Source: Eledone cirrhosa (taxonomy: Eukaryota). From it: 64,000 bases of DNA. The notes under the pieces were generated by a model. That model had not been told where the DNA came from. It made no database searches and worked only from the letters and a program-made list of their open reading frames with translations. The position numbers were made by a program, and so were the translations under genes. This document shows, piece after piece, positions 1-56,049 of the stretch (position 1 is the first letter of the stretch; the number at the start of each line of letters is the position of its first letter). The stretch covers positions 125,116,001 through 125,180,000 of the forward strand of contig OZ024743.1 of NCBI GenBank assembly GCA_964016885.1. Direction: 5' to 3'.

Positions 1-1132
1 ATTGCCTTACTTACTACGCTGCCGCTGACTTGTACTGCTGGTCCCTCTATAGGGTCTACGTGGGGTAGGGTCTCTTCTTCCCATGCATTCTCCTCATTTA
101 GTAATCTATCATAATGACTCTTCCATGCATCTTTCTTCTCAGCACTTGTGAGGGCAAGCTCACCTTTATCATTCCGGATACACTTCTCTCCAATGACATC
201 ACAACTATCTCTGACACACTGCCTCGCAATCTTGAATACCTCCTGTTTCTGGTCCTCACGTTGTAAAACATGCTTGAATTTTCTATCCTCTGCTTCCCTC
301 CTAGCTAAGTATACTTGTCGCCTAGCTTCCCTCTTGGTCTCTATGTAATGTACCCTGCTCCCCCCGTTCTTCCATTCTTTCCATGCCTGTCTCTTGGCCT
401 TGACTGCTTCATCTACTTTATTGTTCCACCACCAAGTCACTCTCCTCCTGCTTGAGGTCTTACTCCAGCCACAAACCTCATCCGTCGCCTCTAGTAAGTT
501 ATTTTTTAGGAACTCCCAGTTCTCTTCTACGTTAAATGTCTCTATCTGTTCTTCTTTACTGTCGTAGGCGTTGAGTAAAATATCTTTAAATCTGTTACTG
601 GTTGAGGGGACTTTCAGCTTCCAGATCTTTCTTCTCCAGGTTGGCCTCTGTTTCAGGGCTCGTCTAGTTCTGACCGTGAGGTCGCTGACAACTAAGCTAT
701 GTTGGGATGTACATTCCTCACTAGGAAGGCTTTTGTGTTACGACCGTCCATCTGTCACGTCCTCTGATGAGAATAAAATCTAACTGACTAGAGTGCTCCC
801 CTGATCTATAGGTGATCAGGTGGTTGTCGGGTTTTTTAAAGTTTGTGTTACATATCGACATGTCATTGGCGTCGCAGAATTCTAGAAGTCTGAATCCTTC
901 CTCATTCCTTGTGCCAACTCCATGGCCTCCATGTACTCTATTGAAGCCGTCGCAGTGTTTACCTACGTGTCCGTTAAAATCTCCTGCAATGATTAGGAAG
1001 TCCTTGTCGTCTGTTAGAGCAGTAGTGTGTATTAGGGACTCGTAAAACCTATCCTTAAGTTCGTCTGGCAGCCCCGATTGGGGTGCGTAAGCTGATATTA
1101 TTGTGGTAATTGTCTTATTCAGGACTAGTCTG
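1..1132 (-). mobile_element. 5'-truncated RTE LINE copy (APE endonuclease/linker region), continues left of the window
   Basis: Near-identical to 37577-38711. Encodes SAYAPQ...GDFNGHVG...SQLDFIL (APE motifs) with small indels. Ends abruptly in a (TA)n run. Confidence 0.93.
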
Positions 1133-1150
1133 AATATATATATATATATA

Positions 1151-1606
1151 TGTAGGAGGTGAGTTTTATTGTAGTACAATAAAGCAATGCAGATATCGGA
1201 TAAGAAGCACTCTACAGTTTGTGGGACTGGAGTATGCATAATATAAGATCAAAAGATGGTTAAAGGAGTTCCATATATTTTATTATGCGCATTTCAAAAA
1301 CAAACATCATCAAGCAATAATATTTGTGTTATATATATTATATGTAGGAGGTGAGTTTTATTGTAGTACAATAAAGCAATGCAGATATCGGATAAGAAGC
1401 ACTCTACAGTTTGTGGGACTGGAGTATGCATAATATAAGATCAAAAGATGGTTAAAGGAGTTCCATATATTTTATTATGCGCATTCAAAAACAAACATCA
1501 TCAAGCAATAATATTTGTGTTTTCATCAGATAAAACAGGAGAACATGATATGAAGGCTAAAAAACACTTGTGGATAGTGCAGTTATATATGTTGATTTAA
1601 AACTGC
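1151..1606 (-). mobile_element. Non-coding PLE pLTR/retrozyme-like element: ~180-bp partial tandem duplication carrying a hammerhead
   Basis: 1151-1330 is repeated at 1343-1521. Flanked by (TA)n. Hammerhead at 1470-1536. Confidence 0.7.
1470..1536 (-). ncRNA. Type I hammerhead ribozyme motif (this copy lacks one A of GAAA)
   Basis: Minus strand: ttttat CTGATGA [long stem II] GAA(A) TGCGCA TA ataaaa, with palindromic stem III ATGCGCAT. The upstream partial copy keeps GAAA but ends before the CTGATGA core. Confidence 0.7.
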
Positions 1607-12826: not shown

Positions 12827-17805
<4,979 letters not shown>

Positions 17806-17887
17806 GTTATTCCGGGTTGAATCGGAGGTAACCACAGTAAGTAAGGTACTCAATACATAGCAGAGTATAATAGTTTTAATATAGATG

Positions 17888-17938
17888 AGATTCTACAGGA
17901 CTAGAACTGTTTCATTCATTAGAAATCATCAGGAATCT
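17888..17938 (-). ncRNA. Type I hammerhead ribozyme
   Basis: Reverse complement of 18277-18327. Confidence 0.85.
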
Positions 17939-18276
17939 GGGTATCAAAAAATAAATATGGTATTTATAGGTCTCTACAAGTGGTAGGAGAGGGTGGGGAG
18001 TGGGATGGGTGCAGGTCATTGGTTGATAGAGAAGGGAATTCATTAAAGGCTAATTCTACATAGCTATAGTTAATTTATATTTATTTATGTTTTTAGAGTA
18101 ACAAAGGCAGACAGAAATCTATAAACAAGTTCCGGATGGCATACCATTCCTTGTCAATAAGTTTCTCTTTAATGAATTCCCTTCTCTATCAACCAATGAC
18201 CTGCACCCATCCCACTCCCCACCCTCTCCTACCACTTGTAGAGACCTATAAATACCATATTTATTTTTTGATACCC

Positions 18277-18327
18277 AGATTCCTGATGATTTCTAATGAA
18301 TGAAACAGTTCTAGTCCTGTAGAATCT
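18277..18327 (+). ncRNA. Type I hammerhead ribozyme
   Basis: agattc CTGATGA tttc-taat-gaat GAAAC AG-ttctagtc-CT GTA gaatct. GUA cleavage triplet. Confidence 0.87.
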
Positions 18328-18342
18328 CATCTATATTAAAAC

Positions 18343-21407
<3,065 letters not shown>

Positions 21408-21435
21408 ATATGAACAGTCCAAATCAAAATACGGA

Positions 21436-22527
21436 TTGAACTTCCACAAATATTTATCAGAGAATTGGAAACGCTACTTGGATGATTGCCTCATCCTTTG
21501 GTCCCACACACTTGACCAACTGAAGGATTTCAAAAACTTAATAAACGGTATCAATAACCACATCCAATTCACAATGGAATACAGCCAAGATCAACTCCCA
21601 TTTCTGGACATCTTAATCACAAAAAAAGACACAAATATCGAAACTGACATACACTACAAACCAACAGATTCCAAACAATATCTGCTATTCACCTCCAACC
21701 ATCCAAAGCACACGAAGACGAACATTCCTTTTAACCTAGCAAGAAGAATTTGCACAATTGTCTCCAATTATGAAACGCGAAATAAAAGACTTCAAGAATT
21801 AAAGGAAATTATACTTGAGAGAGAGTACCCACTATTACTAATAAATAATGGAATAGAAAGGGCTAAAGCAATAGGCATTGATGAATTACGGAAACAGAAA
21901 CAAATTCAAGGTACGTCCAATATTCTATCATATATCTCAACACACAACCCAAGAAATGCGGAAGCTTACAACACTATTCACAATAACATCCCACTACTAA
22001 AACAAAACCCAAGAATGAAAAAAGCCCTTGAAACACACAAAATAATCAAAAGACAACCAAAATCACTGAAAACATTACTCACCAATGCCAAATTACCTAC
22101 CACAAACCCACAACCAAATATCAAAAAATGTGATCGCTCTAATTGTGGAACCTGCACTCACCTCATTGAAGGCAACACGTATACATTTAAATCAGGACAA
22201 AATTTTACTGTAAAAAAAAATCACTTCACTTGCTCAACAAAAAATCTAGTTTATGCCATTAAATGTAAAGGATGCAATGAAGATTATATAGGACAAACTA
22301 AACTCACACTCAGAAACAGAATGACAGTTCATCGCCAACAATTACGAGATCCAACCACGAGACAGATACCACTAAGTGCACAACTAGACATTTGCGCAAG
22401 TAATAAGACACCCAAATTCCAAGTCTTCCCATTTTACCTTTGCGCTAACAATACAACAGAACAAATGCGAATAAATAAGGAAAATATGTTTATTCAAAAA
22501 TATAGACCAACATTAAATAAGGTTTAA
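21436..22527 (+). CDS. PLE RT C-terminal half, Cys linker and GIY-YIG endonuclease (partial)
   Basis: [18 protein letters not shown], CxxxxCxxC linker, NLVYAIKC...YIGQT..R..H. Confidence 0.92.
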
Positions 22528-24336: not shown

Positions 24337-25764
24337 CTATATATATATTGTTGAGGTAGCCTGCTTTACTAAGGGCGTTATCGTAGTACTCGGCGTGTTC
24401 CTTAAATACTTGTATGTTAGAAGATAGACCCGAGTTTTAAGGGAAATATTTTTAGGGATAGATTTAATTATAGAGATGGGGTGGTTAGACCCAACATTTA
24501 CGTACTTGAGATTTTCATTCAATTTATGAAACGGTTTAATCAGACCAGAGTTTAAATTGAGTGTGACATCTAGGAAGTTAACTACTTTAAGGTTGTATTC
24601 ATATGTTATAGTTAGTCCTATTTCGAGTAGTAGTTTTCTTATATCTTTGCGTAGTTTTTCTAGTTTTTGGTTATTTAGGTTTTTAACTAGGAGGAGAACA
24701 TCGTCGCGGTATATTCCGCCGTGGAGATTGCTGAATTTTTCCTGGAGTCTAAAGGCGATAAATAACCCCACAATATCAGTTATTTCCGCCGAATCGTTAG
24801 AGCCCATTGTTATGTCAAAGTTAGAGGATGTATCTTTACGTACCCAATAACTGTTCTCAAATTTGACTATAGTTTTCCTAGCTTCTAATATAATTTTAAT
24901 TTCATCGTTTGTAAGGTCAGAGTTATCCTTAGCAAACTTAATGGCTCTATTCAAAGTTTCAGGTGATATCGATGAGTAATATTCGTCGATATCAAACTGG
25001 ATAAACTTAGATTTATTCTTATTGCTAGTGCTATTAAACCATCTTATTGCTTCTTGGGTCTTCCCCCAGAGTTTAATGTTAACCTTAGCCTTAATTTTGG
25101 GGATGATTCTATCTAAGATATATTTGCTTATTTTACCTATATCTGATTTAGAGGGACAGATTAATCTAATTTTAGGGTCATTATCAAAGTTTACCTTATG
25201 GTCCTTAAGATTGAAGGTGGGTACCGCCGGTAAGAGTGGTCCTGTCCTATCTTCGATCCCGAGATTTTTCACTATTTCGCATGCCTCATCATTGATGTGC
25301 TTAAGAGTTACTTCATTCGTTTTTCTATATTTTTTATGTAATTCTTTTCGAATGAAGTTCTTGTATGTAGTGCAGTCCATAGTATACAGGTTTGATGTTT
25401 TGTCCGCTTTTACTACAATTCCTTTGGTGTTTTTAAGGTCGTCCAGTAGTTTTTTAATATCTTTCTGTAATCTGTTGTTGGTGTTACGTCCTTTGAATTT
25501 AATTTTAAGGATTAAGTCCATAAGGTCCTGCTCAAATGCATCTAATAGTGGGTTGGTGGGTGGGTTTTTACACGTTCTAAAACCAAATTTGTTGTTTACA
25601 CCACTTTCCGATGGTGAGTTCATACGGCTTCTATCATAGTGGAGGGTTTTCCACCCGACACGTCGAATGAATTCATTAGTTTTTTGAATCTTACTCAATA
25701 AGTATTCCTTTTTACCTTGGGTTGGTATGTTTTTGAGTGACATATCCAGGTAGTGTTTTTCCAT
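24337..25764 (-). CDS. Penelope-like reverse transcriptase, N-terminal 475 aa (3'-truncated)
   Basis: KADKT, KDHK..IRLI, FDIDEYYSSI, ITMGS, YRDD, VNFLDVTL, SNHP motifs. True ATG start. Confidence 0.92.
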   Translation of the reverse strand: MEKHYLDMSLKNIPTQGKKEYLLSKIQKTNEFIRRVGWKTLHYDRSRMNSPSESGVNNKFGFRTCKNPPTNPLLDAFEQDLMDLILKIKFKGRNTNNRLQKDIKKLLDDLKNTKGIVVKADKTSNLYTMDCTTYKNFIRKELHKKYRKTNEVTLKHINDEACEIVKNLGIEDRTGPLLPAVPTFNLKDHKVNFDNDPKIRLICPSKSDIGKISKYILDRIIPKIKAKVNIKLWGKTQEAIRWFNSTSNKNKSKFIQFDIDEYYSSISPETLNRAIKFAKDNSDLTNDEIKIILEARKTIVKFENSYWVRKDTSSNFDITMGSNDSAEITDIVGLFIAFRLQEKFSNLHGGIYRDDVLLLVKNLNNQKLEKLRKDIRKLLLEIGLTITYEYNLKVVNFLDVTLNLNSGLIKPFHKLNENLKYVNVGSNHPISIIKSIPKNISLKTRVYLLTYKYLRNTPSTTITPLVKQATSTIYI

Positions 25765-25814
25765 TGTTGTGGTTACGTTTGCTGTGTGGGTTGCTCGACT
25801 TTACAGGAGGTAAA

Positions 25815-32750: not shown

Positions 32751-33695
32751 TTGTTATACTTTGGTAGGGTCATGTTGCCAATAAGAAACACACGCACCAG
32801 TTGCTTTCACTTCAATTTATTATAATAAATTTATAAATTTAGGAATTTATAAATTTCTGGTTGGTTGGTTGGTTCCACAACCAGATAGTTGTTTATATAT
32901 ATTGTCAACGTTCTTTCGTCACACATTCTGTGACCTCTTCAGTGACTGGGGATTCTTTTCTTTGTTTTTGTGCCTCTCCTTTGTTCTGTCCTACGCCATT
33001 TTGTTTCTGTGTGTGTGTTGTGTGCTCAGTCTGCGCATGCGCCACATCCGGGTGTCTGTGTGTGTTTATATTTGTTTATTTATTTGTTTATTTACATGTT
33101 ACCGGTTGGTTGTTTGTTCTATGTGTGTGTGTGTTTTCATTTTGTCCTTAATTGTAAGTTGTGATGTTGCTGTTCCATTCATGTTTTCTATTTAATTTTG
33201 GTTGGAGTTCATTTATGTTTATTGCCTCTGTGATTTGTCTAAACATTGTGTCTTTTCTGTGTGTAGATTCTATTTTTATTTCTATGTTCTCTAATTTACC
33301 CCTATGTTCTATTTTAGCATGTTGGTAGAGTACAGATGATTCTTTACTATCTTGAAGGTCTCGCCAGTGTTCATTTATCCGTTCCCCTACACTACGAGCT
33401 GTCTCACCTATGTACACTATATTTTTGTCTCTACATTGTCCTTCAGTACATCTTATGCTATACACTACATTTCTAGTTTTACAGTTAATATGGGGGCTTA
33501 TTTTACAGGTTATACATTTCTTATCTATACAGGGGGGTCTTTGGAAAGGGTATGTCTTGCTAATAAGTGTTTTTACGGAGGTACCTGGTCTTTCTACTAT
33601 CTTAATATTGAGTTTATGTTTATCTAGGGCCCTTCTAAATTTGTAAGCTAATTCACCTCTAGGGGTTGTATCGATGAACATTACACTCTGGTATT
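32751..33695 (-). mobile_element. PLE 3' fragment (provisionally Nematis-like): linker, GIY-YIG and pLTR
   Basis: ORF 33148-33681 contains CxxxxCxxC, NVVYSIRC, YIGETAR and EAI...LN. Highly similar to 43508-44436. Confidence 0.88.
32904..32946 (-). ncRNA. Hammerhead motif with mutated cleavage triplet (likely inactive)
   Basis: gtca CTGAAGA g gtcaca-gaatg-tgtgac GAAAG AA CGT tgac. The sister copy has CTT. Confidence 0.65.
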
Positions 33696-35944: not shown

Positions 35945-38900
35945 TCAGCATGTACCCATGGGAGGTCGGGTACCCTGTATTACTGCGTGACGCCAGAAGT
36001 CACGGTCGTGTGTCATTGACTTTGAGAGGTGTAGTTGGGTAAGGTCGGCTTTTATCACCTCATCCCAAGTCATCTTGGGTTTCCCCACTCCGCGGTTTCC
36101 ATCAACTTCTAGTGCTCTGCACCTTTTTATGCAGCTGTCATCCTTCATACGCATCACATGTCCATACCAGCGTAACCGCCTCTCCTGCACGCAGCATTTG
36201 ATTCCTCTTATGCTCAGTCTCTCTCTCAATTCCTTTATGCTTTGTCGTTCACGTATATTACTGTTACACATCCATCGGAGCATGCAGGCTTCGTTTCTCT
36301 CTAATCTACGTAAGTCTTCCACCTTCAGCGCCCAGGTCTCACTACCATGCAACATCGCTGTTCGGATACACGCATCATACAGTCTGCCTTTCATTCTGAG
36401 GGAGAAGCCTTTTGCAGCTAGCAGTGGTAGTAGTTCCCTAAACTTCTTCCATCCCGTTCTTACCCTAGTTATTGTACTTTCTGAACTCCCACCTCCGTTG
36501 CTAATTCGGTCACCTAGGTAGCAGAAGCTGTCTACTGTTTCTACAGGGCCCTCCCAGAGATTGGTGGTACTTGTTTCCTGTGGCTGTTTGCTTGCTGTTT
36601 CAGCACAGCTGCTGCATGTGAATCCTACATTCTTAATTAAGCTTCCTGAGATCCCGCTACATCTCTTGTGTACCCATTGTTTGCATTTGGGGCAGAGAAT
36701 GGAGTTCCTACCTACACCTTTCCTACATACTGAGCAAGGCCATTTCCCTGAGGGGATCTGGGTTCTGTTTTCTCGTCTACTTATAAGGACCTTAGTCTTT
36801 GTCATGTTGACTTTGAGGCCCTTTCTCTCTAGTCCCTGCTTCCAGGTTTGGAATTTATTCTCTAGTTCTACCATAGATTCAGCTATGAGTGCGAGGTCAT
36901 CAGCATACAGGAGTTCCCATGGGCATCCGGTCTTAAACTCCTCCGTTATTGCCTGCAGGACTATGATGAACAGGAGAGGGCTAAGAACAGAGCCCTGGTG
37001 GACCCCAACCTGTACGCTAAATTCCTCGCTATACTCATTGCCAATCCTAACTTTGCTGACTGCTCCCCTATACATGGCTTGTACCGCTTTCACAAGCCAT
37101 TCATCTACTCCTAGTTTTCTAAGAGCCCACCAGATTACTGCACGTGGAACTCTGTCAAAGGCTTTCTCAAGGTCGACAAATGCCAAGTAGAGTGGCTTAC
37201 TTTTAGCTAGGTACTTTTCCTGTAATTGCCTCACAAGGAAGAGGGCATCAGTGGTGCCTTTCCCTGGTACAAACCCAAATTGCATCTCGTCTATATTCAC
37301 CCGGTCCCTAATCAGCTGTGCTATAACTCTTTCTGTTACTTTCATGACCTGGTCCATCAACTTTATACCTCTATAGTTTGCTCTATCTAGTGCATCGCCT
37401 TTACCTTTGTAGCAGTTGACAATGATGCTACTGCACCAATCTTTTGGTATGGCCCCTCTAGTATTACCTGGTTAACGATACGTGTGGTTATAGTGTGACC
37501 TACAGACCCAGATGCCTTCAGCATCTCGGCAGCTATACCCGATGGACCGGTTGCCTTCCCTATCTTCATATCTCTGATTGCCTTACTTACTACGCTGCCG
37601 CTGACTTGTACTGCTGGTCCCTCTATAGGGTCTACGTGGGGTAGGGTCTCTTCTTCCCATGCATTCTCCTCATTTAGTAATCTATCATAATGACTCTTCC
37701 ATGCATCTTTCTTCTCAGCACTTGTGAGGGCAAGCTCACCTTTATCATTCCGGATACACTTCTCTCCAATGACATCACAACTATCTCTGACACACTGCCT
37801 CGCAATCTTGAATACCTCCTGTTTCTGGTCCTCACGTTGTAAAACATGCTTGAATTTTCTATTCTCTGCTTCCCTCCTAGCTAAGTATACTTGTCGCCTA
37901 GCTTCCCTCTTGGTCTCTATGTAATGTACCCTGCTCCCCCCGTTCTTCCATTCTTTCCATGCCTGTCTCTTGGCCTTGACTGCTTCATCTACCTTATTGT
38001 TCCACCACCAAGTCACTCTCCTCCTGCTTGAGGTCTTACTCCAGCCACAAACCTCATCCGTCGCCTCTAGTAAGTTATTTTTTAGGAACTCCCAGTTCTC
38101 TTCTACGTTAAATGTCTCTATCTGTTCTTCTTTACTGTCGTAGGCGTTGAGTAAAATATCTTTAAATCTGTTACTGGTTGAGGGGACTTTCAACTTCCAG
38201 ATCTTTCTTCTCCAGGTTGGCCTCTGTTTCAGGGCTCGTCTAGTTCTGACCGTGAGGTCGCTGACAACTAAGCTATGTTGGGATGTACATTCCTCACTAG
38301 GGAAGGCTTTTGTGTTTACGACCGTCCATCTGTCACGTCCTCTGATGAGGATAAAATCTAACTGACTAGAGTGCTCCCCTGATCTATAGGTGATCAGGTG
38401 GTTGTCGGGTTTTTTAAAGTTTGTGTTACATATCGACATGTCATTGGCGTCGCAGAATTCTAGAAGTCTGAATCCTTCCTCATTCCTTGTGCCAACTCCA
38501 TGGCCTCCATGTACTCTATTGAAGCCGTCGCAGTGTTTACCTACGTGTCCGTTAAAATCTCCTGCAATGATTAGGAAGTCCTTGTCGTCTGTTAGAGCAG
38601 TAGTGTGTATTAGGGACTCGTAAAACCTATCCTTAAGTTCGTCTGGCAGCCCCGATTGGGGTGCGTAAGCTGATATTATTGTGGTAATTGTCTTATTCAG
38701 GACTAGTCTGAGTTTAATGATTCTTGCATTTACCCTGTACACTGAGATTACTTTATCTACCCACTTGTCAGCTAATAGTATACCTACACCACCCATCCCA
38801 TCGTCATTTCCCACCCAGAAAAATTTGTAGCACTGGCTTTTTCCTACAAGGACTCTAGCAGACCCTCCTCTCCATCTAGTCTCTTGCACACAGCATACAT

Positions 38901-39063
38901 CAACTTCCTTTCGCTCTAGCATTTCTACGATTTCTCCTGCTCTTCCTTTCATTGAGCCTACATTGATGGTACCAACTCGGAGTTTTGGGCATTTGTCGAC
39001 ACTCGTAGGGGAGGGTCTCTGGGTTGGCGCTTCACGTGGGTGCTTGGTAGCTCGCAGATTCAT
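35945..39063 (-). CDS. RTE APE endonuclease-reverse transcriptase ORF with a single frameshift near 37455
   Basis: GTINVG, QETRW, GDFN, QFGF, FVDLEKAFDRV, GVHQGSVLSP, YADD, RRLRWYGHV. Adding one G to a G-run restores EGAIPKDW...YKGKGD. Confidence 0.93.
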
Positions 39064-39304
39064 ATTTCATCTATTGATTCAGAGTTGCTCGTGTATTCCC
39101 AGCTCATCCATCCATAACGGTGGGAAAATTGAGGGCTAGAAGAACAGTGGTGGTGGGGTAATGGCAGGGTGTGTTGGGATGCGCCAGAGGAGGAGAGAGT
39201 TAGTTAGGCAGGTAGTAGCAGCAGCAGTGGAAATGGCATGCTAGGTTTGATTGGTCGAATAGACTATGGTGGTGTGTGGGGGTGGGGGGGAGGGAAATTG
39301 TGAG

Positions 39305-42914: not shown

Positions 42915-44758
<1,844 letters not shown>

Positions 44759-49530: not shown

Positions 49531-49687
49531 CGGCCAGCACGTGGGACCCCATTTTCTCATAATACAGAGAGATGGGGAGGGCGAGAGAGAAGGATGCGAT
49601 GACAGTGAGAGTTCGGCTCTTCTGTGTTCGGACCAGGAGGGCAGCGTCAGTTGTCCGTAGGGAAGTAGTGATTCACATATATATATA

Positions 49688-50584
49688 CAAGGTGTGTCAG
49701 AAAAGTTCCAGGACTGATGTCACAAAAGATTTATTTCAAACCCAAACTTCACACTAAGAGTTTTCTCCTTCAAAGTAATCCCCCTGGAGTATGTAACTGT
49801 AATCTTAGCTCTCTGCAGCAAGCAAACTTTTTTCTTCATAATTTTATATACATGTCCTCTGTTTCAGGTCGTCAAGCAATGAGCACAGAGCAACGAACAA
49901 ATTTGAAAACTCCGCCAGAAGCACTGGGATTGCTGCAGCAAGTGTATGGAGATGAGACGATGTCACGCTCACGTGTTTTTGAGTGGTGCAAGAGGTTTAA
50001 AGAAGGACGCGAGGACGTGGAAGATGACCCTAGGAGCGGAAGGCCCTCAACAACCAGAATTGAGGTCAAAGTTGAGCGCGTCAGGCAGATGGTGCGTAGC
50101 GATCGTCGGCTGACTGTTCGACTGATGGCAAATGAGCTGAGCATGAATCGGGACAGCGTCTGGGAGATTCTCACTGAAGATTTGGACATGCGGAAAGTCT
50201 GCGCGAAGATGATGCCAAAACTGCTGAACGATGATCAGAAGGGTCGACGCATGCAAGTGTGCCAGGACATCCTCGAGCGTCTTGAAAGCGAACCAGACTT
50301 GCTAGGGACAGTCATCACCGGTGATGAGTCATGGATCTTCGAGTATGACCCGGAGGGGACCCGTTTTGAAGACGTGGACGACATCAAAAAGGCTGTGACG
50401 ACGGAACTGCGGGGGATCCTGGAAGAATCCTTCCAGGAGTGCATGCAAGCGTGGCAGAAAGGGGTGGAAAAGTGCATTAGACTCCAGGGGATTACTTTGA
50501 AGGAGAAAAAACTCTTAGTGTGAAGTTTGGGTTTGAAATAAATCTTTTGTGACATCAGTCCTGGAACTTTTCTGACCCACCTCG
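49688..50584 (+). mobile_element. Internally deleted mariner element with ~90-bp inverted ends and TA target duplication
   Basis: HTH region (VYGDETMSRSRVFEW, DDPRSGRP) and TGDESW..YDPE joined directly to the C-terminal G.RF. The second and third catalytic Asp are missing. Confidence 0.93.
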
Positions 50585-52934: not shown

Positions 52935-52940
<6 letters not shown>

Positions 52941-53100
52941 TAATATAGAAATGGTTTATACAGGACTAGAACTGATGATTTATTCGAATGAAACAGTTCT
53001 AGTCCTGTAGAAGCCATTTCTATATTAAATTTGATGTTTATACTCTACTAATGTATTGAGAACTTTACTTACTGTGGTTACCGCCAATTGAACCCGGGAC
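52935..53100 (+). mobile_element. Short fold-back element with a hammerhead core in its loop (family of 17806-18343)
   Basis: ~35-bp arms. CTGATGA...GAAACAG..CTGTA at 52972-53009. The tail matches the reverse complement of 17811-17870. Confidence 0.8.
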
Positions 53101-53112
53101 TCACACACACAC

Positions 53113-54899: not shown

Positions 54900-55505
54900 T
54901 CTACAAACGTATTCCTATATAAGTTATTGACTAGCATTTGTTGACTTCTCTGGGTTCTTTTTTAATTTAAATATTTATCGCAGAAGGGATTTGACTACAG
55001 ACAGTTTATATCTAAGTGGACATCCATTGTCCTCGTGTACATCTAGGCCTTTATTGCTATTTCTCGTGTAGTCAAATCTGCTATATGAGTTGCGCTTTAT
55101 TTCTAGGTCGTGTCATCTGAAGGTATTCCAGAATTAAATTTGAGGGTGTAACTATTTAAAAAAATCTATAATTCTATCCACCTCTTCCATTACGTTTATC
55201 ACAATGGATACGTTATGGACATACTCGATAATGACCTTGTTATACACGAGAATGTCCTTTTTTTAACGGTGTCCAAGTAGAACCCTGTAACTATGTGTCC
55301 GAGTAGTGAACCCATAGCTACTCCGTCTTTGTGATTATATAGATTGCCTCGTGACAAACAGAAGAACACTTCAATTGCGTAGGCCAGCAGGAATTTTCTT
55401 AGGGTGTTTCTTGGCATATTAGGTGCCTTTATTATTGGTTGTTTATACATATTTCCTACTAGTGTGCCTATGGTTTCAATTATTGGAACATCATTGCAGT
55501 ACATT
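54900..55505 (-). pseudogene. Degenerate Penelope/Poseidon-type RT fragment
   Basis: DVPIIETI and LYNHKDGVAMGSLLG motifs. Frameshifted. Confidence 0.7.
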
Positions 55506-56049
55506 ACAACAAACCTGCCAACCTCAAAAACCTAAACGGGGAGAAATGAGGAGATTTTACATAGTGAAAGCTATACTCATTTTCACAAAAGAAGACATCT
55601 CTCACCCAAAAGTGAGTGCGAGATCTCCTTGTAAGGCGGAGAGAGCTGACGGGTTTGTTACAATACATGATACGAAGTAAAACTGGATAGATAATATATA
55701 GAATTCCTGAAAAGAATTCTACAAAAAAGTAGAAGTATAGCTATACAAGCTTTCAAAAGTAAAATAGATAGAAACTAAAATTTAACACACAGACAGAGCA
55801 TTCTAGTAATAAACTAAAAATAGTGTATTGTTGTTTAAATAAATTAGAATTAAGCTTTAACAAAATTTTTAATCTGGTTCAAATCAATAGGAACATTTCA
55901 ATGGACCTTGCAGTTGGCTAAAAAACAATCACTATCACCTACTTCGGTTGAGGCAGAACGATATTGTTCGAAACTAGACATAAAGAACTAATTAGGATAT
56001 ATAAAGAATCTTTCAATATGTATGTATCTATGGTCCCGTAACTCCTGAT

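What the first reader, a model, noticed from the sequence alone, without database searches (positions are those of the whole stretch)
17806..18343. Two intact opposed hammerheads in a 540-bp non-coding fold-back
Transcripts from either strand contain one sense ribozyme and can form ~175 bp of dsRNA, an ambisense arrangement superficially like viroid-like RNAs. A diverged relative at 52935-53100 keeps the core and stem III, which shows it is a mobile family.
Basis: partly seen in the sequence, partly recalled or inferred. Interest (0 to 1): 0.72.

Follow-up and report, generated by a model that had tools for sequence, protein, structure and literature searches.

The report
Head-to-head Penelope insertion with paired hammerheads
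This hairpin-shaped DNA is one of thousands of shortened, mirror-image insertions of a young Penelope-like jumping gene, each arm carrying that gene's own predicted self-cutting RNA motif, so it is an already described layout and not a viroid-like element; most sister copies stop where the gene's RNA likely starts, and one sister copy sits at the start of a very long repeat array of the bare motif.

Summary
In detail: a perfect 179-bp inverted repeat (17870-18048 / 18167-18345) carries a type I hammerhead core on each strand, inside (TA)n.

The viroid-like reading does not hold. The 540 bp are two 5'-truncated copies of the 3' end (pLTR) of a young autonomous Penelope-like element (5,394-bp unit, RT plus GIY-YIG ORF, Hydra-clade motifs). 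They are joined head to head at a 3-nt microhomology, and one side has a 64-nt tail. That layout, including opposed hammerheads 100-700 bp apart, is published. In a read-through RNA the ribozyme is predicted to be buried (82 kcal/mol).

What the family adds:
- The tail 30-mer has 8,070 exact copies; 59 of 90 sampled copies are fold-backs.
- 46 of 85 arms that reach the ribozyme's 5' edge stop there, about 30 nt after a TATA box; only 5 of 139 stop at the cleavage site.
- Both arms always share subfamily variants (42 of 42).
This points to twin run-off copies of one uncut RNA. The scan noted the same run-off pattern earlier in other genomes. A 78-bp hammerhead satellite of at least 366 kb begins at one such fold-back. 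No RNA data were found.

The parts
14001..17805 (.). (TA)n-rich microsatellite, left flank (insertion target; begins further left)
17806..17869 (-). 64-nt one-sided PLE tail = 3' end of the element; in full units it runs on into the 49 nt before the ORF's first ATG
   Evidence: 8,070 exact copies of its first 30 nt
17806..18169 (-). Tail arm: last 364 nt of the element, identical to the C1164 full unit
17888..17938 (-). Type I hammerhead motif (core starts 17932; predicted cut between 17894 and 17893)
   Evidence: cleavage not tested
17961..17968 (-). TATAAATA, 30 nt before the first base of stem I (predicted promoter, pointing left)
   Evidence: mirror of 18247; function inferred; consensus recalled
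18049..18166 (-). 118-bp spacer = element 3' UTR present only in the longer arm
18167..18169 (.). 3-nt microhomology (CTT) at the head-to-head junction
18167..18345 (+). Inverted arm: element positions R243 to R65 counted from the 3' end; has no tail
18193..18197 (+). CCAAT-like box (mirror at 18018-18022 on the minus strand)
   Evidence: function inferred
18247..18254 (+). TATAAATA, 30 nt before 18277; initiator-like CCAGATT at 18275-18281 (predicted promoter, pointing right)
   Evidence: consensus motifs recalled, not from a call
18277..18327 (+). Type I hammerhead motif: stem I 18277-18282/18322-18327, core 18283-18289, GAAA 18302-18305, palindromic CTAG in loop III, predicted cut after GTA 18321
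   Evidence: cleavage not tested
18346..21400 (.). (TA)n-rich microsatellite, right flank
52936..53102 (+). Mini fold-back of an older related family (B); junction at the core, 5' strand of stem I missing

Best explanation
The 540 bp are two 5'-truncated copies of the end (pLTR) of a young Penelope-like retroelement with Hydra-clade motifs, joined head to head in a (TA)n tract, and they were likely made when the element's protein nicked both target strands and reverse-transcribed one uncut RNA twice. Shown by sequence: identity to the full unit, the tail, the microhomology, the copy numbers, the pile-up of arm ends, and the variants shared by both arms. Inferred: one copy is primed at the tail end and the other 65-74 nt upstream, and the two cDNA ends are joined by microhomology or a few added bases. 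The RNA likely starts at the first or second base of hammerhead stem I, about 30 nt after a TATA box. Priming near that 5' end would give run-off cDNAs of about 130 nt, the commonest insertion. Longer arms such as this copy's (364 and 179 nt) need the downstream pLTR of a read-through RNA, a template jump or a circle. The two hammerheads are passengers: predicted to be buried in a read-through fold-back RNA, and predicted to cut mainly as a dimer or with protein help when transcribed from the arm's own promoter. Confidence by step: about 0.95 for a PLE inverted insertion, about 0.65 for run-off at the start site, about 0.55 for one RNA copied twice.
For: Element: the full unit is 5,394 bp in tandem on C1164 with a 758-codon open frame. 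The protein has RWR, DKT, YRDD, CxCx5C, VY..YIG, CxxC and CxH. The window copy is identical over 364 nt. Layout: inverted copy, tail, (TA)n target and pLTR hammerhead are described in PMC8557442, and opposed pairs 100-700 bp apart in PMC4209133. 59 of 90 tail-anchored copies have an adjacent inverted arm, and 71 of 90 abut a TA/CA microsatellite. 14 of 18 longer stretches show an upstream opposite-strand partner (my count). Run-off: 46 of 85 arms at risk end at R130-134, against 0-5% per 5-nt window at R74-123 and 3-6% at R140-154; 5 of 139 end at the cleavage site. Reverse-strand exact counts fall from 5,290 to 1,673 across 9 nt. Family B also has TATAAATA 37 nt before its core, and all but two of the family-B cores listed match upstream for at most 8 nt. 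One template: the arms agree at R113 in 42 of 42 (chance 0.46 each) and at R81 in 49 of 49. The inverted arm is longer in 28, shorter in 11 and equal in 20. A purified PLE protein cuts and extends both strands, starts at two internal sites that define the tail, and prefers uncut RNA (PMC11167929). Folding.
Against: No RNA run, cap map or cleavage assay supports the start site or ribozyme activity. The sequence before stem I also reads as a splice acceptor (T-rich tract, CAG); no constant upstream exon was seen at the junctions, but a very short exon is not excluded. The modal end is R132, one base short of the TATA+30 position, and an extra cap-derived G was inconclusive. Agreement between arms could also come from one active source at a time, or from conversion between arms after insertion. 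Pfam gave only a sub-threshold GIY-YIG hit (E 0.065) and no RT hit. The sample is 90 of the first 100 listed places, all from the first 60 Mb of C1. A third Hydra-like family has a TATA box 34 nt before a core whose stems I and III I could not draw.
Confidence: 0.8

Rival explanations
1. Same element, but the inverted arm is a snap-back copy: a first cDNA or an antisense RNA folds on itself and primes its own copying, as proposed for rotifer Penelope elements.
For: The arms always share variants. 23 of 59 junctions have microhomology, and some inserts repeat nearby CCTGA. Proposed in PMC3846280 (passages).
Against: A copy of the tail-arm cDNA cannot be longer than its template, yet the inverted arm reaches further 5' in 28 of 59, once by kilobases (L035). 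Both arms stop independently at R130-134.
Confidence: 0.12
2. The pile-up at R130-134 marks a splice acceptor or a block to reverse transcriptase, not the transcription start.
For: A T-rich tract and CAG lie just before ATTC, and the modal end includes the G. In Drosophila virilis Penelope the intron ends at the 5' end of helix I (PMC4209133).
Against: No shared upstream exon appears at the junctions, the TATA box lies exactly 30 nt upstream, and the family-B limit does not fit its nearest AG. A block caused by the ribozyme fold would be expected at its 3' side, where ends are rare.
Confidence: 0.2
3. The fold-back is a self-propagating ambisense, viroid-like or retrozyme-like RNA that cuts on both strands.
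For: There is a core on each strand, and 26 of 59 sampled fold-backs keep both cores.
Against: 57 of 59 junctions differ, so the fold-backs are not copied from one another. The ribozyme is predicted to be buried on both strands. Each strand has only one sense ribozyme, so no unit-length circle can be cut out. The sequence is the end of a coding PLE.
Confidence: 0.03
4. This particular fold-back is an assembly or long-read chimera.
For: The arms are 100% identical and lie in very long (TA)n. No listed contig bridged this junction (list cut).
Against: The asymmetric tail, the inverted arm ending at the family's usual R65 site and the 3-nt microhomology match dozens of other loci. Family junctions occur in the contigs of a public run.
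Confidence: 0.03

Closest known systems
Complex insertions of endonuclease-bearing Penelope-like elements (Craig et al. 2021, PMC8557442, passages and section 11 read; Arkhipova et al. 2013, PMC3846280, passages read)
   Same: 5'-truncated copy with an adjacent inverted copy head to head, one-sided tail, hammerhead in the pLTR, partial tandems, (TA)n target; TATA and initiator-like motifs in pLTRs were noted in rotifers.
   Different: The tail is 64 nt instead of 30-40, and the unit is 5.4 kb. The sharp stop of arms at the ribozyme's 5' edge is not in the passages read.
Hydra clade of PLEs (PMC8557442, section 11 read)
   Same: C-terminal GIY-YIG, DKT, RW[K/R], CxCx5C linker, CxxC and CxH, hammerhead, (TA)n insertion; molluscs are among the hosts.
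   Different: Longer than 3 kb and present in thousands of copies; no tree against named Hydra elements was built.
PLE minimal hammerheads (Cervera and de la Pena 2014, PMC4209133, parts 1-2 of 4 read)
   Same: Type I, short helix III with a palindromic loop, predicted dimer; 'dual min-HHRs ~100-700 bp apart in opposite strands' were already reported and tied to truncated PLEs.
   Different: U-U instead of G-C at 10.1-11.1; 3-bp helix II; 3-bp helix III with an 8-nt loop.
Poseidon element PAc in vitro (Frangieh et al. 2024, PMC11167929, parts 1-2 of 4 read)
   Same: Works like it: both strands cut and extended, two internal RT starts defining the tail, uncut RNA as the main template.
   Different: Different clade; here the ribozyme and tail lie upstream of the ATG. 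That paper does not address inverted arms or run-off at a start site in the parts read.
Metazoan non-LTR retrozymes (PMC7229834, passages read; bioRxiv 10.64898/2026.07.22.740005, part 1 of 5 and passages read)
   Same: The C28 satellite is a tandem array of a type I hammerhead derived from a pLTR, as the preprint proposes.
   Different: The fold-back itself is not tandem. The satellite unit is 78 bp against 150-450 bp and has roughly 4,700 or more units against a reported maximum of 300. Expression is untested.
Ambisense viroid-like circular RNAs (PMC10162972, search listing and abstract start only)
   Same: A ribozyme motif on each polarity.
   Different: Genomic DNA, linear, one duplicated motif, flanked by retroelement signatures; no evidence of circles or RNA replication.

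Membership tests
Endonuclease-bearing Penelope-like element | Single ORF with RT and a GIY-YIG endonuclease in the full unit | tested here: met
   709-aa frame with YRDD at 343 and VYKC..YIG at 582-600. Pfam GIY-YIG only E 0.065, below cut-off, and no RT model hit. 29 of 30 long homologs share [YF]RDD.
Endonuclease-bearing Penelope-like element | pLTR from a partial tandem, direct or inverted | tested here: met
   Tandem on C1164 and in L039; 59 of 90 with an adjacent inverted arm
Endonuclease-bearing Penelope-like element | One-sided tail extension | tested here: met
   64 nt; inverted arms start at R65 (22) or R74 (16) of 59; longer than the 30-40 bp described
Endonuclease-bearing Penelope-like element | Hammerhead within the pLTR | tested here: met
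Hydra clade | DKT in place of DKG; RWK motif | tested here: met
   DKT at 112; RWR at 34 (K to R variant); 28 of 30 long homologs have DK[TS] and 0 have DKG
Hydra clade | CxCX5C linker; CxxC and CxH near the C-terminus | tested here: met
   CNCLNKETC at 562, CDLC at 662, CMH near the end
Hydra clade | CCHH motif absent from the endonuclease | tested here: inconclusive
   No CxxC inside the GIY-YIG core, but a second Cys lies nine residues on; it is absent in the related family C
Hydra clade | Insertion into (TA)n | tested here: met
   71 of 90 abut a TA/CA-type microsatellite, 2 are internal, 17 other
Hydra clade | Generally under 3 kb | tested here: not met
   Unit 5,394 bp, with a microsatellite-rich 3' UTR; given in the paper as a tendency
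Hydra clade | Groups with named Hydra RTs in a tree | not tested
   No named reference sequences were on hand; the paper's supplements were not read
Type I hammerhead ribozyme | Core CUGANGA, GAAA, UH with stems I-III | tested here: met
   Variation among 90 copies is concentrated in loop II, not in the core or stems. Stem I differs but can still pair in family B (read).
Type I hammerhead ribozyme | G10.1-C11.1 pair | tested here: not met
   U-U in families A and B; no Rfam hit
Type I hammerhead ribozyme | Self-cleavage | not testable with these tools
   Monomer fold marginal; the two-molecule minimum-energy fold is a double hammerhead, -21.2 against 2 x -5.6 kcal/mol
Ambisense viroid-like RNA | Propagates as one unit with a fixed sequence | tested here: not met
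   57 distinct junctions in 59 fold-backs
Ambisense viroid-like RNA | Ribozyme can fold in each full-length strand | tested here: not met
   Probability of stems I and III 0.00 on both strands; cost 82.4 kcal/mol (computed)
Ambisense viroid-like RNA | Circular RNA of both polarities | not testable with these tools
   Needs RNA data
Non-LTR retrozyme | Direct tandem units, each with a type I hammerhead | tested here: not met
   Not met by the fold-back (inverted pair); met by the C28 satellite, with 109 cores in 10 kb

The most novel reading that the evidence does not exclude
Penelope elements of this kind start their RNA on the first base of the hammerhead and make twin strong-stop DNAs: one protein dimer copies the same capped, uncut leader from two start sites. 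The promoter can then only be inherited through a retrovirus-like jump, a circle or the far pLTR. The thousands of mini fold-backs are the fossil record of that step, and one of them seeded a 78-bp, several-thousand-unit hammerhead satellite, shorter in unit than any retrozyme in the passages read, which may yield dimer-cut 78-nt RNAs.
Probability: 0.5. Interest if true: 0.62.

Novelty: new member of a known kind. Interest (0 to 1): 0.38.

Why it matters
The locus itself is ordinary for a Penelope-like element. The family matters because how PLEs form inverted pLTRs, and what their hammerheads do, is stated as open (PMC8557442, PMC11167929). Here thousands of young copies give countable footprints. 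Arms stop at a predicted start site rather than at the cut site, so cut RNA was rarely the template. Both arms share one source. These make sharp predictions for cap mapping and for an existing in vitro system. The satellite shows a pLTR turning into a ribozyme array with its origin still visible. Fold-backs inside host transcripts could also be editing or small-RNA substrates, which is untested.

Tried and rejected
Rfam at gathering score and at E<10 gave no hammerhead model; the MIR2118 hit only reflects the long hairpin. The repeat finder and a stop-to-stop ORF list were swamped by (TA)n.

The sequencing-run search listed no RNA holder. The two guessed-RNA runs laid gave only short AT-rich chance pieces. 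Contig depth was not used as a count: the tool says it cannot rank parts, and the satellite inflates it. Run X20 may be the assembly's own sample. One search listed no contig across this copy's junction, and its list was cut.

My first idea that L010 and L024 carry a foreign element was wrong: it is the same element's ORF in a long inverted arm. The 12-fold drop between the ribozyme 30-mer (16,662) and the TATA 30-mer (1,409) overstates the effect, because a satellite inflates the first and subfamily variants lower the second. I used reverse-strand counts of two 20-mers instead.

An extra cap-derived G was inconclusive: G precedes GATTC in 7 of 18 and AGATTC in 3 of 5, often supplied by the other arm. 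Two natural adjacent satellite units did not fold into a double hammerhead at minimum energy. Family C gave no clear stems. The window copy shows no A-to-G marks, being identical to the C1164 unit.

Searches for a printed run-off or strong-stop model for PLEs: one search gave 0 papers; no listed PLE paper held 'strong-stop'; one search gave nothing on octopus hammerheads; one search gave 0; one search gave 1 unrelated review. Older PLE reviews (2005, 2006) and all supplements were not read and may bear on this.

Full report
1. Observation. The window holds a perfect 179-bp inverted repeat (17870-18048, 18167-18345) with a 118-bp spacer and a unique 64-bp stretch at 17806-17869, set in kilobases of (TA)n. 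A descriptor scan finds the same type I hammerhead at 18283 (+) and 17932 (-): stem I 6 bp, stem II 3 bp with U-U at 10.1-11.1, stem III 3 bp with a CTAG palindrome in its loop, and a GUA cut triplet. Rfam does not recognise it. Below, R n means n bases from the element's 3' end (window 17805+n): core R127, stem I 5' strand R133-128, predicted cut R88/89.

2. What it is. The window lies in a 3.0-Gb genome. The closest named homolog of the element's protein is from Octopus vulgaris (63% identity over part of the protein), which suggests a cephalopod host; that is inference. A 245-nt query returned 40 full-length copies at 99-100% identity. Longer stretches show the full unit: 5,394 bp in tandem on C1164, with a 758-codon open frame, a microsatellite-rich 3' UTR, and pLTR plus tail. 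The protein (P0001) has the motifs listed for the Hydra clade in PMC8557442 section 11: RWR, DKT, CxCx5C, CxxC and CxH. Pfam support is weak. The window copy matches that unit exactly for R1-364 on the minus strand. The inverted arm is R65-243, and the two overlap by CTT. So the fold-back is two truncated copies of the element's end. The tail 30-mer occurs 8,070 times.

3. Sample of copies. I took 90 of the first 100 listed tail matches, all on C1. Left out were the last eight, one already held, and one next to another. Selection was on the tail only, so it does not depend on 5' length. 59 of 90 have an adjacent inverted arm; about 13 of the other 31 are long arms whose partner may lie beyond the 900 nt examined. 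Among 18 longer stretches, 14 show an upstream opposite-strand partner (my count). 57 of 59 junctions are distinct: 23 have microhomology, 9 are blunt and 27 have inserted bases. 26 of 59 keep both whole cores. Extrapolated, that is roughly two thousand loci with opposed cores.

4. Where arms stop. Of 149 arm ends, 46 of 85 at risk stop at R130-134 and 33 of 118 at R124-129. Elsewhere the rate is 0-5% per 5-nt window at R74-123, 13% at R135-139 and 3-6% at R140-154. At the cut site (R86-90) it is 5 of 139, so a small excess there is not excluded. Genome-wide, reverse-strand exact counts fall from 5,290 (R131-112) to 1,673 (R140-121). TATAAATA begins exactly 30 nt before R133, an initiator-like CCAGATT covers it, and CCAAT lies further upstream (consensus motifs recalled). 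Family B, the 52935 relative (4,258 candidates, about 90-94% identity), has TATAAATA 37 nt before its core with a different spacer. All but two of the family-B cores listed match that upstream sequence for at most 8 nt. The 15 best-supported joints listed for run X20 reach at most 17938 and 18277, which is R133 on both arms (190 more were not shown, and the run may be the assembly's own sample). I infer run-off at the RNA's 5' end. A splice acceptor is the main rival; no shared exon was seen.

5. How two arms arise. The arms of one insertion agree at subfamily sites: R113 42 of 42, R81 49 of 49, R115 42 of 42, R116 42 of 42; chance agreement at R113 is 0.46 per pair. The inverted arm reaches further 5' in 28, less far in 11, and is within 3 nt in 20, which a snap-back copy of the tail arm cannot produce. 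Inverted arms begin mostly at R65 or R74, next to TA-like bases that could pair with the target. A purified PLE protein cuts and extends both strands, is predicted to be a dimer, starts at two internal sites that bound the tail, and mainly uses uncut RNA (PMC11167929, parts 1-2 read). The simplest model is twin priming on one RNA followed by end joining. One active source at a time, or conversion between arms, would mimic the allele agreement.

6. Do the ribozymes work here? Computed only. In the 540-nt read-through RNA of either strand, forming stems I and III costs 82 kcal/mol. In the leader from R133 it costs 3.6, and in the isolated motif 1.1. Two isolated motifs fold at minimum energy into a double hammerhead (-21.2 against 2 x -5.6). 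This fits the dimer-dependent, weak PLE hammerheads of PMC4209133 (parts 1-2 read). Opposed copies cannot form that dimer in cis. Both arms of this copy include the predicted promoter pointing outward, so their own transcripts would lack the other arm.

7. Comparison. The inverted truncated copy, tail, pLTR hammerhead and (TA)n target are described for PLEs (PMC8557442; PMC3846280). Opposed hammerheads 100-700 bp apart were reported and tied to truncated PLEs. Drosophila Penelope has a TATA-less internal promoter (PMC2377424, passages), unlike the prediction here. I found no printed run-off model; older reviews and supplements were not read. Earlier notes of this scan reach the same run-off reading in other genomes and a two-armed, one-RNA reading for other families in this genome. 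I had recorded the run-off reading before seeing them and the one-template result too. They are unchecked AI notes, not support.

8. Side result. A strand imbalance in the counts led to a satellite on C28 (2,077 forward against 6 reverse tandem pairs genome-wide). Its units are 77-79 bp of bare hammerhead. It starts at about 30,496,750, directly after a tail arm of opposite strand in (TA)n, and is present in all probes up to 30,863,000 but absent at 30,920,000. That is at least 366 kb if continuous, about 4,700 units. 19 of 60 cleanly delimited units keep core, stem I and stem III; units with a changed anchor were not scored. Published retrozyme units are 150-450 bp (PMC7229834, passages).

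9. Verdict. Real, explained, and a new member of a known kind. The locus is ordinary. The family statistics and the satellite make a known open question testable. Interest 0.38.

Noticed in passing
G000:C28 about 30,496,750 to at least 30,863,000 (L185-L192): Satellite of 78-bp bare-hammerhead units, at least 366 kb if continuous, starting at the inverted arm of one fold-back of this family; longer repeating patterns are visible among the units.
   Followed up: partly
G000:C1:83,679,700-83,692,200 (L166-L167): Twelve tandem ~1.08-kb copies of the element's 3' end (promoter, hammerhead, tail), followed by an ORF fragment and an inverted copy; retrozyme-like.
   Followed up: partly
G000:C1:350,200,256 and C3:296,721,078: Short tandem runs of the same hammerhead with 78-bp and about 110-bp periods.
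   Followed up: no
window 8761+, 32694+, 43047-, 46107+, 32942-, 43696-, 34445-, 52827-, 56398+, 61089-: About ten further CTGANGA..GAAA cores from other repeat families. 8761 and 56398 can be drawn with stems I-III; the others were not checked.
   Followed up: partly
window 24337-25800 (-): Second Hydra-like PLE family (C), 39% identical protein, with many copies having 785-codon open frames. Its core lies 316 nt before the ATG with TATAAAA 34 nt upstream; an inverted partner of about 270 nt appears to flank some copies (L175).
   Followed up: partly
window 21409-22527 (+): RT C-terminus plus GIY-YIG (Pfam E 2.8e-7) with a CxxxxCxxC linker, Neptune-like, inserted at the end of the same (TA)n tract.
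   Followed up: partly
window 33148-33693 (+), 43902-44623 (-), 55199-55531 (-): Further PLE-like ORF fragments, read; the first two form an opposite-strand pair about 10 kb apart.
   Followed up: no
window 35945-39066 (-) and 721-1248 (-): LINE (RTE-like) endonuclease and RT frames; a mariner-like fragment at 49672-50523 (+). Labels recalled, not from a call.
   Followed up: no
L090 (G000:C1:14,211,151): A copy whose upstream pLTR ends at R139 and runs into the ORF side: a candidate promoter-less copy that ran off near the predicted start.
   Followed up: no
L101: Fold-back whose tail arm is family A but whose inverted arm reads like another subfamily; a possible exception to the one-template rule, without overlap to test it.
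   Followed up: no
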